A stretch of DNA of 64,000 nt from an uncultured Acidobacteriota bacterium (GTDB lineage Bacteria; Acidobacteriota; Blastocatellia; RBC074): positions 352,001 through 416,000 of the forward strand of contig CAWCKY010000007.1 of NCBI GenBank assembly GCA_963796275.1. The letters run 5' to 3'. Numbering within the stretch: the stretch's first letter is position 1; each line of letters begins with the position of its first letter. Below, piece by piece: positions 23,315 through 25,520 of this stretch. The position numbers were made by a program, and so were the translations under genes. Below the pieces are notes generated by a model, which was not told the origin of the DNA, ran no database searches, and saw nothing but the letters and a program-made list of their open reading frames with translations.

Positions 23315-23617
23315 ATGAGCGAAGCAAATAGCAGCGAGATGACAATGGATGACTGGCGTCGCAGGATTGATGCGATCGATCTGCAGTTGGTCGAACTCTT
23401 CAATGAGCGAACAAAGTGTGCCATCGAGATCGGCCACATCAAAAAACGGCTCGGGCTGGAGATATACTCGCCCGGGCGCGAAGCCCAGGTCCTCGCCAAT
23501 GTCACCGCGGCCAATGCAGGCCCGCTCGATGCGGAAGCGATCAGGCGATTGTTCGAACGTGTTATCGACGAAGCGCGGCGCATCGAGAGGATTGAAGCGG
23601 AGAAAAATGAAATATGA
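23315..23617 (+). CDS. Chorismate mutase (AroQ type)
   Basis: WRRRIDAIDLQLVELFNER, IGHIKK, PGREAQV. Confidence 0.9.
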   Translation: MSEANSSEMTMDDWRRRIDAIDLQLVELFNERTKCAIEIGHIKKRLGLEIYSPGREAQVLANVTAANAGPLDAEAIRRLFERVIDEARRIERIEAEKNEI

Positions 23618-24624
23618 TCATTGTGATGGAAGAGAATGCGACCGAAGAGCAGATCGTCAAAGTGGTGGATCGCCTGGTCAACCTCGGATTCGATATTCAT
23701 CGGTCTACTGGCGCGCGCTATACGATCCTCGGCGCAGTCGGGTCGCGCCTCGCGGATACCCTCTCACTGGAATTGCTCGAGGGCGTGAATCAAGTCGTGC
23801 GCGTGAGCTCCTCATACAAGCTCGCAGCGCGCGCCTTCAATCCGGCTGGAACATCGATCAAAGTCAATGACATCACAATCGGCGACGATCGGGTCGTCGT
23901 CATGGCCGGTCCCGGAGTCGTCGAAAGCCGGGAACAGATAGAAATAATAGCCGGTGCGCTGGCCGGGCATGGCGTGCAGGTATTGTGCGGCGGCGCGTTC
24001 AGATCGAGTGCCGATCCCTTCGGATTCCAAGGGTTGGGAGAAGAGGGCTTGCGCCTTTTGCGTGAAGTCGCAGACAACTATCACATGCTCACAGTCTCCG
24101 AGGTCACGGACGGGGCGCAGCTCAACCTCTTCACCAAATTCGTCGATCTCATCCAGGTAGGCGCACGCAACATGCAAAACTTTCCGTTGCTCAAGGAGCT
24201 GTCGAAAATCGACAAACCTGTCATCCTCACGCGCGGCGCGTCGTCGACGATCGAAGAGACGCTGATGTCGGCGGACTACCTCATGACCGGGGGCAATCAT
24301 CAAGTGATCATCTGCGAAAGCGGCATCCGGACGTTCGAAACCTACACCAGCCGCACGCTGGACGTCTCCGCCATCCCAGTCTTTAAAAAACTCTCGCACT
24401 TGCCGGTCATCGCCGACCCGTGTCGCGGCACAGGCAGGCGCGACAAGGCCCCGCCGATGGCCCGCGCAGTTGTTGCAGCGGGGGCCGACGGATTGCTCAT
24501 CGAAGTCCATCACGATCCGGAGCGCGCGCTCTGCGATGCGGCGCAATCGCTCACGCTCGAGCAGTTTCATCTTCTGGCCGGGCAGTTGCGCTTGACCGCT
24601 GCGGCGGTGGAGAGATCTCTGTGA
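23614..24624 (+). CDS. aroF: DAHP synthase I-beta homolog with N-terminal regulatory domain; active-site residues largely substituted (probable pseudoenzyme)
   Basis: Fold motifs are kept (FQGLG, QVGARNMQNF, GIRTFE, IEVH), but GPC>GPG, LRGG>LCGG, KPRTS>RSSAD, LKRG>LTRG, CERG>CESG and DPSH>DPCR. Confidence 0.85.
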   Translation: MIIVMEENATEEQIVKVVDRLVNLGFDIHRSTGARYTILGAVGSRLADTLSLELLEGVNQVVRVSSSYKLAARAFNPAGTSIKVNDITIGDDRVVVMAGPGVVESREQIEIIAGALAGHGVQVLCGGAFRSSADPFGFQGLGEEGLRLLREVADNYHMLTVSEVTDGAQLNLFTKFVDLIQVGARNMQNFPLLKELSKIDKPVILTRGASSTIEETLMSADYLMTGGNHQVIICESGIRTFETYTSRTLDVSAIPVFKKLSHLPVIADPCRGTGRRDKAPPMARAVVAAGADGLLIEVHHDPERALCDAAQSLTLEQFHLLAGQLRLTAAAVERSL

Positions 24625-25520
24625 GCGGATTTCAAGATATTAAGGGCATCTGCATAGTCGGCTGCGGTTTGATCGGCGGATCCTTCGCGCTCGCGATCCG
24701 CCGCGCGGGCTATACCGGTAAGATCACCGCTTATGGGGGCGTGCGCTCTCCGCGGATAGCGATCGAGCGGGGGATCGTCGACGCCGTCGAAGAAGGCATT
24801 GGCCGCGGCGAGACGCTGGATGCGGATTTGATCTACCTGGCCGCGCCGATCGGCGGAATCATCGATTTTCTGCGAACCAGAGCGGGACAGATCAAAGAGG
24901 GCGCGCTGGTGACAGATGCCGGAAGTACGAAAGCAGAAATCTGTCGTATTGCGCGGGAGTCGCTGCCACCCAGCATCGACTTCGCCGGCGGCCATCCGAT
25001 GGCCGGAGCCGAACATGCCGGGGTCGAATACGCCCGCGCCGACCTTTTCGATCGGGCGACATACGCTCTGACAATCGAGGAGGGTTCCAGCCGGTTCAAT
25101 CGAATCACACCGATCATTGAGGGATTGGGAGCGCGCGTCGTGCTGACCGATCCAGATTCGCACGATGCCGCGGTTGCGCTCATCAGTCACCTGCCGCAGC
25201 TCGTCGCAAGCGCGCTCGCGGCTTCGCTCGGCGGCGTCGATGAAGCGATAGAGCGGGAGTTGGCGCAGCGGTTGGCTGCGCGCGGTTGGCGCGATATGAC
25301 GCGTTTGGCCGCGAGTTCATGGAGCGTGTGGCGCGATATCTGTTTGACCAATCAGTCGAACATTGCGGAAGCGCTCGGCCGACTGATCGCCGAGCTTCAA
25401 TCGCTCAAAGATGCGGTCGACACGCGAGACTTCAATCACGTCCGCGATCTCTTCACCGCGGCAAATCGAGAGATTACTGAGCAGCGCAAGATTCATTATT
25501 CGCGCTTCGATACGGTCTAG
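24621..25520 (+). CDS. tyrA: Prephenate/arogenate dehydrogenase
   Basis: IVGCGLIGGS, TDAGSTK, GGHPMAGAE, HDAAVALISHLPQ, RDMTRLA; GTG start overlaps the upstream stop. Confidence 0.92.
   Translation: MSGFQDIKGICIVGCGLIGGSFALAIRRAGYTGKITAYGGVRSPRIAIERGIVDAVEEGIGRGETLDADLIYLAAPIGGIIDFLRTRAGQIKEGALVTDAGSTKAEICRIARESLPPSIDFAGGHPMAGAEHAGVEYARADLFDRATYALTIEEGSSRFNRITPIIEGLGARVVLTDPDSHDAAVALISHLPQLVASALAASLGGVDEAIERELAQRLAARGWRDMTRLAASSWSVWRDICLTNQSNIAEALGRLIAELQSLKDAVDTRDFNHVRDLFTAANREITEQRKIHYSRFDTV

What the first reader, a model, noticed from the sequence alone, without database searches (positions are those of the whole stretch)
23315..25520. Intact but apparently catalytically dead DAHP synthase coupled between chorismate mutase and prephenate dehydrogenase
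Seen: a full-length 336-aa ORF with overlapping start/stop codons on both sides and well-conserved scaffold motifs. Substitutions concentrate on the active site: metal ligands Cys (GPC>GPG) and His (DPSH>DPCR), the KPRTS substrate loop (>RSSAD), and basic PEP-binding residues (LRGG>LCGG, LKRG>LTRG, CERG>CESG). The N-terminal ACT-like allosteric domain is retained. Known: these residues are near-invariant in type I-beta DAHP synthases, and in some actinobacteria a DAHP synthase (of type II) binds and allosterically controls chorismate mutase. Inference: a pseudoenzyme kept as a Tyr/Phe-sensing regulatory or scaffold subunit for the adjacent minimal chorismate mutase or TyrA, or a neofunctionalised enzyme. 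Random decay would not be expected to target the active site so selectively.
Basis: partly seen in the sequence, partly recalled or inferred. Interest (0 to 1): 0.76.

Follow-up and report, generated by a model that had tools for sequence, protein, structure and literature searches.

The report
Conserved dead DAHP synthase in tyrosine operon
A full-length copy of the first enzyme of aromatic amino-acid synthesis has lost its metal and substrate-binding residues, yet it is conserved across many soil Acidobacteria beside two tyrosine-branch enzymes, so it probably survives as a tyrosine-sensing helper protein rather than as an enzyme.

Summary
Window 23614-24624 (+) encodes a 336-aa type I-beta DAHP synthase homologue. 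It has an N-terminal ferredoxin-like (FL/ACT-like) domain and a confidently modelled barrel. Its codons overlap those of an AroQ chorismate mutase (ATGA) and of TyrA (GTGA).

Eight of 12 literature-defined metal, PEP and E4P ligand positions are replaced.

This is not decay. Ninety-one database relatives share the same remodelled site (FR-x-S-x-DP, GP[G/S], mostly DPSR). With the window they form one clade, and 29 canonical Blastocatellia-type enzymes are their closest relatives.

On 16 contigs matched by length, the dead protein diverges slightly less than the adjacent TyrA (ratio 0.87). Its FL domain is its most conserved part.

The order CM-DAHPS-TyrA is ancestral in Acidobacteriota, so this gene occupies the canonical enzyme's slot.

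Best reading: a pseudoenzyme kept as a tyrosine-sensing regulatory or scaffold subunit. The most likely partners are the operon's CM and/or TyrA. A mixed tetramer with an active paralogue is the main rival.

Four literature searches found no description of such a family.

The parts
23315..23617 (+). AroQ-class chorismate mutase, 100 aa
   Evidence: PF01817 at 87.6 bits and TIGR01807 at 70.3 bits against a cutoff of 69.55. All 16 columns that are invariant in an alignment with 39 CMs from canonical CM-DAHPS-TyrA loci are present.
23614..24624 (+). Catalytically degenerate type I-beta DAHP synthase homologue (psiDAH7PS), 336 aa
   Evidence: AF2 model: pLDDT 84.2, pTM 0.79. Foldseek top match is 1RZM; the barrel fits 1ZCO at rmsd 1.7 A and TM 0.90.
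23614..23808 (+). Ferredoxin-like (ACT-like) regulatory domain, residues 1-65
   Evidence: PF18152 at 64.5 bits, residues 1-65. It is the most conserved part of the dead clade: 87.5% mean pairwise identity against 74.3% for the barrel. Residues G25-G43 (GFDIHRSTGARYTILGAVG) are identical to those of canonical Blastocatellia-type enzymes such as P0057 and P0103.
23914..23916 (+). G101 in place of the metal-ligand Cys (GPC>GPG)
   Evidence: alignment. In the 120 relatives this position is G 70, S 17, C 30.
23986..24015 (+). LCGGAFRSSAD in place of LRGGAFKPRTS (PEP/E4P loop; C125, R130, S132, D134)
   Evidence: Within the dead clade R130 is 95%, S132 93% and D134 100% conserved. Residue roles come from passages of PMC6362186.
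24229..24231 (+). T206 in place of the PEP-binding Lys (LKRG>LTRG)
24319..24321 (+). S236 in place of the PEP-binding Arg (CERG>CESG)
   Evidence: This Arg is kept in 65% of the dead clade.
24421..24426 (+). C270-R271 in place of Ser and the metal-ligand His (DPSH>DPCR)
   Evidence: R271 occurs in 78% of the dead clade.
24502..24537 (+). Retained metal-ligand positions E297 and D308
   Evidence: E in 114/120 and D in 113/120 relatives.
24621..25520 (+). Prephenate/arogenate dehydrogenase TyrA, 299 aa from the GTG start; no ACT domain
   Evidence: PF02153 and PF20463; NCBIfam alignments start at residue 74-77 of the longer ORF. The database holds an identical 299-aa protein.
23614..23617 (+). 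ATGA stop/start overlap between CM and psiDAH7PS
   Evidence: Read directly from the sequence.
24621..24624 (+). GTGA stop/start overlap between psiDAH7PS and TyrA (the start is inferred)
   Evidence: Read from the sequence together.

Best explanation
The gene encodes a pseudoenzyme. It is a paralogue, or positional orthologue, of the FL-domain type I-beta DAHP synthase that normally sits between chorismate mutase and TyrA in Acidobacteriota. It keeps the barrel fold and the tyrosine/phenylalanine-binding FL domain. It has lost two of its four metal ligands, the E4P-phosphate loop, and in this sub-lineage three of the four basic PEP ligands, so it very probably cannot make DAHP.

Shown: the residue losses, the single origin, the conservation, the linkage to TyrA, and the strongest constraint falling on the FL domain.

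Inferred: it still forms the DAHPS-type oligomer and still binds tyrosine through FL-domain pairing. It uses that conformational switch to regulate or scaffold the co-translated tyrosine-branch enzymes. The most likely partner is the minimal AroQ chorismate mutase encoded just upstream, and possibly TyrA. This would resemble the way DAHPS controls CM in known DAHPS-CM assemblies. The catalytic job would be done by a canonical DAHPS encoded elsewhere.

My confidence that it is a selected, non-catalytic protein is about 0.9. My confidence in the specific partner (CM/TyrA) is about 0.4, and that is the figure given.
For: 1. Residue loss. Eight of 12 ligand positions are changed (roles from PMC6362186 passages). 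The same positions are intact in 82/83 DAHPS sequences from 80 loci and in 118/120 longer fused homologues.

2. Family-wide state. 91 of the 120 best relatives carry the same FR-x-S-x-DP, GP[G/S] and mostly DPSR state.

3. Single origin. The 92 rows form one clade at SH-aLRT 100, and still at 97 after 34 active-site columns are dropped.

4. Purifying selection.
- 72 of the 92 are exactly 336 aa long.
psiDAH7PS is the less diverged in 114 of 136 pairs, and the two distances correlate at r = 0.88.
- Relative to TyrA, the FL domain diverges at 0.45 times and the barrel at 0.96 times the rate.

5. The FL domain is the best-conserved region, which reverses the canonical pattern.

6. No column gained constraint and 20 lost it relative to the canonical relatives. 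This fits retention of a subset of the ancestral roles.

7. Operon logic.
- In 80 loci, CM lies just upstream of DAHPS in 52 and TyrA downstream in 58.
- The window's gene holds that slot, with stop/start overlaps on both sides.
- Contig-length matches link psiDAH7PS to close TyrA relatives in 16 of 91 cases, against 0 of 29 for the canonical Blastocatellia-type copies (Fisher p = 0.011).

8. Intact neighbours. CM keeps all 16 of its family's invariant columns. TyrA matches both full prephenate dehydrogenase domains. A chorismate supply is therefore expected.

9. Precedent. DAHPS-CM functional coupling, both covalent and non-covalent, is documented (passages of PMC8408635 and PMC5526877). By the precomputed Pfam columns, fused FL-DAHPS-TyrA (17 carrying PF02153), FL-DAHPS-prephenate dehydratase (about 99) and CM-FL-DAHPS (2) occur among the 120 longer homologues.
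Against:
- No fused form was found within the dead clade itself.
- No psi-specific surface patch appeared. The 14 fixed differences from the canonical relatives are the active-site loop plus mostly conservative changes. A partner interface would therefore have to be ancestral.
- The CM looks like an ordinary, complete AroQ enzyme and shows no sign of needing an activator.
- A second, active DAHPS in the same genome was not demonstrated. None lies in the 64-kb window, and no contig-length match links a dead copy with a canonical copy.
- The roles of FL residues H29 and S31 in tyrosine binding are recalled from memory; the primary paper was not held.
- The contig-length pairing is an inference, not a read of the contigs.
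Confidence: 0.4

Rival explanations
1. Hetero-oligomer with the active paralogue. The dead subunit co-assembles with canonical Blastocatellia-type DAHPS into mixed tetramers. Through FL-FL pairing it tunes tyrosine feedback or the number of active sites. This is how many pseudoenzyme paralogues act on their active counterparts.
For: - The dead clade and 29 canonical sequences form one clade at SH-aLRT 100 and are 65-70% identical.
- The FL segment G25-G43 is identical in both. FL identity between the two groups is 76%, higher than the barrel's 67%.
- The barrel remains as constrained as TyrA, as expected if the tetramer interfaces must be kept.
- No new constrained positions appear.
Against: - Co-occurrence of both forms in one genome is unproven. 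The accession-number and contig-length approaches gave no pairing.
- This model does not by itself explain why the dead copy, rather than the active one, stays translationally coupled to CM and TyrA. Linkage was 16 of 91 against 0 of 29.
Confidence: 0.25
2. Neofunctionalised protein. The remodelled pocket binds a different ligand as an extra sensor site, or catalyses a different reaction. The pocket is Arg-rich in most of the clade (R125, R130, R185, R206, R207, R236, R271) and also carries the fixed D134, S132, G137, D221 and H247.
For: - The replacements are not random. D134 is 100%, G137 99%, D221 99%, R130 95%, S132 93% and H247 87% conserved in the clade.
- Two Lys and one His are replaced by Arg in most members, while E297 and D308 are kept.
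- About 65% of the clade keeps R236 and has R at 206, so those members could still bind a phosphate or carboxylate ligand.
Against: - The window's own sub-lineage has gone further and lost R125, the basic residue at 206, and R236. Whatever that pocket binds elsewhere is therefore not required here.
- 20 canonical-invariant columns are relaxed and none is newly constrained.
- The fixed charged replacements could simply fill the empty metal and phosphate sites with salt bridges. This last point is inference.
Confidence: 0.15
3. It is still a DAHP synthase that works with an altered, possibly metal-independent, active site.
For: - It scores above the NCBIfam cutoffs for DAHPS.
- Two metal ligands and the GAR arginine remain.
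- Metal-independent relatives exist in the sister KDO8PS family (recalled, not from a call).
Against: - Cys and His metal ligands are lost, along with the Lys, Arg and Thr of the KPRT loop and two further PEP ligands.
- These positions are intact in 82/83 and 118/120 homologues examined.
- Non-metallo KDO8PS changes only the Cys (recalled).
Confidence: 0.04
4. A decaying pseudogene or annotation artefact with no function.
For: - The active-site ligands are lost.
- MRCA-to-tip path length is 3.2 times that of the canonical relatives, or 1.9 times without the active-site columns.
Against: - 92 intact sequences in one clade, 72 of them exactly 336 aa.
- It diverges less than the neighbouring TyrA.
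- The FL domain is 87.5% conserved.
- Start/stop coupling is intact, and GC3 is 0.73, in line with its neighbours.
Confidence: 0.02

Closest known systems
Thermotoga maritima-type DAH7PS (type I-beta with an N-terminal ferredoxin-like/ACT-like domain; PDB 1RZM, 3PG9, chimera 4GRS)
   Same: Same two-domain architecture and length. 44-47% identity by Foldseek, with E-values of 7e-86 to 3e-93. The FL domain is retained, including H29 and S31 at the aligned positions. In T. maritima, Phe/Tyr binding to the FL domain closes access to the active site (passage of PMC5526877).
   Different: Two of four metal ligands, the KPRTS loop and three basic PEP ligands are replaced, so catalysis is very unlikely. 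The FL domain, not the barrel, is the most conserved region.
Non-covalent DAHPS-chorismate mutase complexes of Mycobacterium tuberculosis and Corynebacterium glutamicum
   Same: A DAHPS-family protein acts as an allosteric partner that activates a small AroQ CM and passes Tyr/Phe feedback to it (passages of PMC8408635). This is the proposed mode of action here.
   Different: Those DAHPS are type II and catalytically active, and their CM is a low-activity AroQ subclass. Here the protein is type I-beta and dead. The CM shows no obvious defect, and no binding has been shown.
CM-fused type I-beta DAH7PS (Bacillus, Listeria and Geobacillus with N-terminal CM; Prevotella and Porphyromonas with C-terminal CM)
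   Same: They belong to the same I-beta barrel subfamily. CM and the barrel communicate allosterically, and in Prevotella each activity depends on the other (PMC8408635).
   Different: Those are covalent fusions with an active barrel and no FL domain. Here CM is a separate, translationally coupled gene and the barrel is inactive.
Bacterial pseudoenzyme subunits of biosynthetic enzymes: HisZ (a dead HisRS paralogue regulating ATP-PRT) and PyrC' (an inactive dihydroorotase needed by Pseudomonas ATCase); also the trypanosome AdoMetDC prozyme
   Same: Each is a catalytically dead paralogue of a metabolic enzyme, conserved under selection. HisZ and PyrC' are encoded beside their partner, and each serves as a regulatory or structural subunit. 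HisZ and PyrC' are recalled from memory. The prozyme is from the abstract of PMC5201418, seen in the listing.
   Different: They come from different enzyme families. For those cases the partnership is shown experimentally; here it is inferred.

Membership tests
Type I-beta DAHP synthase (EC 2.5.1.54), FL-domain subclass | Homology and fold: a (beta/alpha)8 DAHP_synth_1 barrel plus an N-terminal ferredoxin-like domain | tested here: met
   PF00793 at 206.9 bits and PF18152 at 64.5 bits. PRK08673 at 392.5 bits against a cutoff of 335. Sequence search: 1RZM E = 7e-86. Structure search: top match 1RZM, barrel rmsd 1.7 A to 1ZCO.
Type I-beta DAHP synthase (EC 2.5.1.54), FL-domain subclass | Four metal ligands: Cys, His, Glu, Asp | tested here: not met
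   G101 and R271 replace Cys and His; E297 and D308 are kept. Ligand roles are from PMC6362186 passages.
Type I-beta DAHP synthase (EC 2.5.1.54), FL-domain subclass | The LRGGAFKPRT(S) loop, in which Arg and Lys bind PEP and Arg and Thr bind the E4P phosphate | tested here: not met
   The window reads LCGGAFRSSAD. The motif is intact in 82 of 83 sequences from 80 loci.
Type I-beta DAHP synthase (EC 2.5.1.54), FL-domain subclass | Remaining PEP ligands: GAR Arg, LKRG Lys, CERG Arg | tested here: not met
   R185 is kept; K206 is T and R236 is S.
Type I-beta DAHP synthase (EC 2.5.1.54), FL-domain subclass | DAHP-forming activity | not testable with these tools
   Needs an enzyme assay or complementation.
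Pseudoenzyme regulatory paralogue (HisZ / PyrC' / prozyme kind) | Descent from an enzyme family, with catalytic residues lost consistently across orthologues | tested here: met
   91 of 120 relatives share the degenerate state. They form a single clade at support 100, or 97 without the active-site columns.
Pseudoenzyme regulatory paralogue (HisZ / PyrC' / prozyme kind) | Purifying selection on the dead copy | tested here: met
   Protein level only. Divergence is 0.87 times that of the adjacent TyrA over 136 pairwise comparisons of 17 contig-matched pairs. Codon-level dN/dS was not possible because no ortholog DNA was obtained.
Pseudoenzyme regulatory paralogue (HisZ / PyrC' / prozyme kind) | An active counterpart or partner enzyme in the same genome | tested here: inconclusive
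   There is no second DAHPS in the window. Canonical relatives exist in Blastocatellia-labelled MAGs, but same-genome pairing could not be established.
Pseudoenzyme regulatory paralogue (HisZ / PyrC' / prozyme kind) | Physical binding to the partner and an effect on its activity | not testable with these tools
This needs biochemistry.
Mtb/Cgl-type DAHPS-CM complex | A type II DAHPS scaffold | tested here: not met
   All sequence, profile and structure matches are to type I-beta enzymes.
KDO8P synthase / NeuB / BagF-FevY (other members of the superfamily) | A score above the family's curated cutoff | tested here: not met
   KDO8PS TIGR01362 scores 96.5 against 314, NeuB TIGR03569 20.5 against 399.65, and BagF/FevY 287.2 against 700.

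The most novel reading that the evidence does not exclude
Acidobacteriota have repeatedly turned FL-domain DAHP synthases into dedicated allosteric sensor subunits. In the Blastocatellia-type clade, the copy left in the ancestral CM-DAHPS-TyrA operon is a dead, tyrosine-latching scaffold. It binds the minimal chorismate mutase (and/or TyrA) and imposes tyrosine feedback at the branch point. This would be a pseudoenzyme-based form of inter-enzyme allostery not described for type I-beta enzymes or for any DAHPS. It would also mean that every such genome is currently mis-annotated as carrying an active DAHPS at this locus.
Probability: 0.3. Interest if true: 0.8.

Novelty: new variant of a known kind. 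Interest (0 to 1): 0.62.

Why it matters
DAHP synthase is the gatekeeper of aromatic amino-acid synthesis and a classic system for studying how allostery evolves by adding domains and partners.

A large, conserved clade in which the regulatory domain and scaffold survive while catalysis is discarded would have two uses:
- It would be a natural dissection of that enzyme's non-catalytic roles.
- It would be a candidate for a new form of control over chorismate mutase or TyrA.

There is also a practical consequence. Every named member seen is called '3-deoxy-7-phosphoheptulonate synthase' by its source. The window protein passes the curated NCBIfam cutoff. Metabolic reconstructions of these abundant soil bacteria would therefore count an enzyme that is probably not there.

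About 15 further strongly degenerate FL-DAHPS-like cluster representatives among 150 suggest that the phenomenon recurs.

Tried and rejected
1. Related loci. I ran the search for related loci on genome contigs with a mixed alignment, hoping to fetch orthologous loci and same-genome canonical copies. All were canonical except L080. No dead-clade DNA was obtained, so dN/dS, conservation of the start/stop overlaps and a genome-level census could not be done.

2. Same-assembly inference. I compared NCBI accession numbers to see whether dead and canonical proteins come from one assembly. No informative pair emerged, and many entries carry no accession.

4. Fused forms. The 'longer' search found FL-DAHPS fusions with TyrA, prephenate dehydratase and CM, all with canonical sites. 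None belongs to the dead clade. The two CM fusions are singletons and could be read-through artefacts.

5. Regulatory elements. The Rfam and promoter/terminator scans around the operon gave nothing usable. No leader or riboswitch was found.

6. Literature. Searches for an inactive or pseudo-DAHPS and for the Blastocatellia shikimate pathway found nothing relevant.

7. Primary papers. Those on T. maritima FL-domain tyrosine binding, the A. pernix structure and a review were not held. The roles of H29 and S31 therefore rest on recall.

8. A contig-length match at 1858 bp (P0007/P0459) was dropped, because a contig that short cannot hold both full genes.

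Full report
**What is there.** Three same-strand genes are packed with overlapping stop and start codons.
- An AroQ chorismate mutase (CM), 23315-23617, 100 aa.
- A 336-aa DAHP synthase homologue, 23614-24624. Its ATG overlaps the CM stop as ATGA.
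- TyrA, 24621-25520. Its GTG overlaps the preceding stop as GTGA. This start is inferred, because prephenate dehydrogenase models begin to align at residue 74-77 of the longer ORF that starts at 24420.

Upstream lie rmlB, rmlA and rmlC. Downstream lie a putative cyclase (PF04199) and a duplicated transposase fragment.

The middle protein has an N-terminal ferredoxin-like domain (PF18152, 64.5 bits) and a DAHP_synth_1 barrel (206.9 bits). It exceeds the curated NCBIfam cutoff for FL-type DAHPS, 392.5 against 335. Its AlphaFold2 model has pLDDT 84.2 and pTM 0.79. The best structural match is T. maritima DAHPS 1RZM, and the barrel superposes on P. furiosus DAHPS at 1.7 A.

The alignment to 1RZM shows GPC>GPG, LRGGAYKPRTS>LCGGAFRSSAD, LKRG>LTRG, CERG>CESG and DPSH>DPCR.

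Ligand roles are taken from passages of PMC6362186:
- metal: Cys, His, Glu, Asp
- PEP: Arg and Lys of the LRGGAFKPRT loop, the GAR pair, then a Lys and an Arg
- E4P: the Arg and Thr of KPRT

By that list, 8 of 12 positions are changed. A184, R185, E297 and D308 remain.

These positions are otherwise almost invariant. In 83 DAHPS sequences from 80 fetched loci spanning several phyla, 82 carry all three motifs. So do 118 of the 120 longer fused homologues.

Of 94 columns that are at least 95% conserved in canonical sequences, the window differs at 16. These include 7 of 11 ligand columns against 9 of 83 others (Fisher p = 2.5e-4). The canonical label was defined by the three motifs, so conservation at those particular columns is partly circular.

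**It is a conserved family, not decay.** The 120 best database relatives are all 65-91% identical, and those that carry names are labelled Acidobacteriota, mostly Blastocatellia. Of these, 91 have the same remodelled site and 29 are canonical.

Within the dead clade the replacements themselves are conserved:
- D134 100%
- G137 99%
- D221 99%
- R130 95%
- S132 93%
- H247 87%
- R271 78%
- position 101: G 77% or S 18%

Sub-lineages differ. Most members keep R125, R185 and R236 and have Arg at 206. The window's own sub-lineage has additionally lost the basic residue at 206 and R236, and its closest members have also lost R125.

A 201-row maximum-likelihood tree puts the 92 dead sequences, including the window, on one side of a branch with SH-aLRT 100. 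They sit inside a clade, also at 100, with the 29 canonical Blastocatellia-type sequences. The dead clade survives at 97 when 34 active-site columns are removed. These are 'quick' trees with SH-aLRT support only. The branching order between the dead clade and the canonical sequences is unresolved.

**Selection.** From the shared ancestor, the dead clade has accumulated 3.2 times the change of its canonical relatives, or 1.9 times without the active-site columns.

That is far from neutral. I take these to lie on the same contigs.

Over the window plus these 16 pairs (136 comparisons):
- Mean p-distance is 0.196 for the dead protein and 0.226 for TyrA.
- The dead protein is the less diverged in 114 of 136 comparisons.
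- The two distances correlate at r = 0.88.
- The FL domain diverges at 0.45 times the TyrA rate.
- The barrel diverges at 0.96 times the TyrA rate.

In the whole clade the FL domain is the most conserved region, at 87.5% mean pairwise identity against 74.3% for the barrel. In the canonical relatives the order is reversed, 83.5% against 88.6%. The FL segment G25-G43 is identical in dead and canonical Blastocatellia-type proteins. H29 and S31 align with the T. maritima residues that I recall as determinants of tyrosine binding. The primary paper was not held.

Compared with the canonical relatives, there are 14 fixed differences. Twenty columns lost constraint and none gained it.

**Context.** In the 80 loci, CM lies immediately upstream of DAHPS in 52 and TyrA lies downstream in 58. 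Nearly all Acidobacteriota loci have the full CM-DAHPS-TyrA order, always with a canonical enzyme. The window's dead gene therefore occupies the ancestral enzyme's slot.

Contig-length matches link the dead proteins to close TyrA relatives in 16 of 91 cases. For the canonical Blastocatellia-type proteins the figure is 0 of 29 (Fisher p = 0.011). This suggests the active copy lives elsewhere.

CM keeps all 16 columns that are invariant across 39 CMs from canonical operons. TyrA matches both full prephenate dehydrogenase domains. The branch looks functional, which implies a chorismate supply.

No second DAHPS lies in the window. Whether one exists in the genome could not be tested. Accession comparisons were uninformative.

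**How it most likely works.** Shown: loss of ligands, single origin, purifying selection on the whole protein with the strongest constraint on the FL domain, and linkage to TyrA (and to CM in the window).

Inferred: the protein cannot make DAHP. It still folds, oligomerises and binds tyrosine through its FL domain, and it uses that switch on a partner.

I favour the co-translated CM and/or TyrA as partner (confidence about 0.4), for three reasons.
- The dead copy, not the active one, stays in the operon with coupled translation.
- DAHPS-CM communication is a recurrent theme. Examples are N- and C-terminal CM fusions in type I-beta enzymes and non-covalent complexes in actinobacteria (PMC8408635 and PMC5526877, passages).
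- FL-DAHPS is found fused to TyrA, to prephenate dehydratase and occasionally to CM in other phyla.

The main rival, at about 0.25, is a mixed tetramer with the canonical paralogue. The identical FL segment and the retained barrel constraint fit it equally well.

A new ligand or a new reaction in the remodelled pocket (about 0.15) is kept alive by the fixed R130/S132/D134/G137 loop. It is weakened by further loss of basic residues in the window's own lineage and by the absence of any newly constrained positions.

Residual DAHPS activity (about 0.04) and simple decay (about 0.02) are unlikely.

No binding evidence exists.

**Comparison and novelty.** By descent this is a type I-beta FL-domain DAHPS. 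By the defining catalytic features it is not a functional member.

Functionally it resembles bacterial pseudoenzyme subunits such as HisZ or PyrC' (recalled), and the DAHPS-CM complexes in which DAHPS regulates CM. Those, however, are type II and active.

Four full-text searches found no paper describing an inactive DAHPS paralogue. The library misses most subscription journals.

A search of 50%-identity cluster representatives shows that about 15 of 150 are other strongly degenerate FL-DAHPS-like proteins. The tree of that set needs at least 6 changes of state. It includes a second, far more diverged dead clade inside the same Blastocatellia-type group (P0261, P0317, P0319). It also includes an 8-member group in which five members keep an HR[ST][ST] FL motif. 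Long branches make their placement unsure. Loss of catalysis with retention of the FL domain may therefore be recurrent.

Every member that carries a source name is called an active 3-deoxy-7-phosphoheptulonate synthase.

**Verdict.** The pseudoenzyme reading is strongly supported. The specific regulatory role and partner are plausible but untested. I rate it a new variant of a known kind, with interest 0.62.

Noticed in passing
window 26631-28642: A 990-bp segment occurs twice in tandem (26631-27620 and 27653-28642; spacing 1022; one mismatch, at 26852). Each copy carries an ORF matching only the C-terminal part of a DDE_5 transposase. It lies about 100 bp downstream of the cyclase gene that follows the operon. 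It could be a partial IS duplication or an assembly artefact.
   Followed up: partly
window 55396-58141: A MacB/FtsX-type permease is split into two overlapping ORFs (55396-56892 and 56684-58141). Three paralogues nearby are single ORFs of 853-894 aa. This suggests a frameshift: either a pseudogene or a sequencing error.
   Followed up: no
window 21692-21787: A roughly 96-nt palindromic element lies between rmlB and rmlA. It scores on both strands against a plant microRNA-precursor model, far below threshold (33.7 and 29 bits against 80). Mirror-image promoter-like hexamers sit at its edges. It is probably a hairpin, terminator or operator, not a miRNA.
   Followed up: no
L080:5001-6068; also P0267, P0272, P0403: A separate group, which includes a Ktedonobacteraceae locus, has KPSTS in place of KPRTS. 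L080 and P0267 also have DPSQ in place of DPSH. Everything else is canonical. This may be a milder or earlier stage of active-site change.
   Followed up: partly
P0136 (680 aa): One protein has two DAHPS-like modules in tandem. The first lacks only the metal Cys. The second is 36% identical to the query and lacks most ligand residues. It may be a fused active-like plus dead pair, or a gene-calling artefact.
   Followed up: partly
P0259, P0261, P0270, P0276, P0304, P0317, P0319, P0344, P0349, P0380, P0387: These are other full-length FL-DAHPS-like cluster representatives with heavily degenerate ligand positions. Several keep the HRSTG FL motif. P0261, P0317 and P0319 fall inside the same Blastocatellia-type clade as the window. 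One, P0304, is named 'N-acetylneuraminate synthase family protein' from a Schekmanbacteria MAG.
   Followed up: partly
Proteins: In other phyla, FL-domain DAHPS is often fused to branch enzymes. By the precomputed Pfam columns, about 99 of the 120 longer hits carry prephenate dehydratase (mostly with an ACT domain; named ones are Desulfobacterota and spirochaetes), 17 carry prephenate dehydrogenase (PF02153), and 2 carry CM. All of these have canonical active sites.
   Followed up: partly
window 25563-26525: A 320-aa putative cyclase, in the same Pfam family as kynurenine formamidase (PF04199, 47.4 bits), starts 43 bp after TyrA on the same strand and matches no NCBIfam model. Whether it belongs to the operon is unknown.
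   Followed up: no
window 28780-33760: A 1172-aa protein with PSD/PSCyt domains (DUF1592, DUF1588, DUF1587, DUF1595, DUF1585) and a cytochrome c motif is followed by a DUF1552 protein. This pairing has no assigned function.
   Followed up: no
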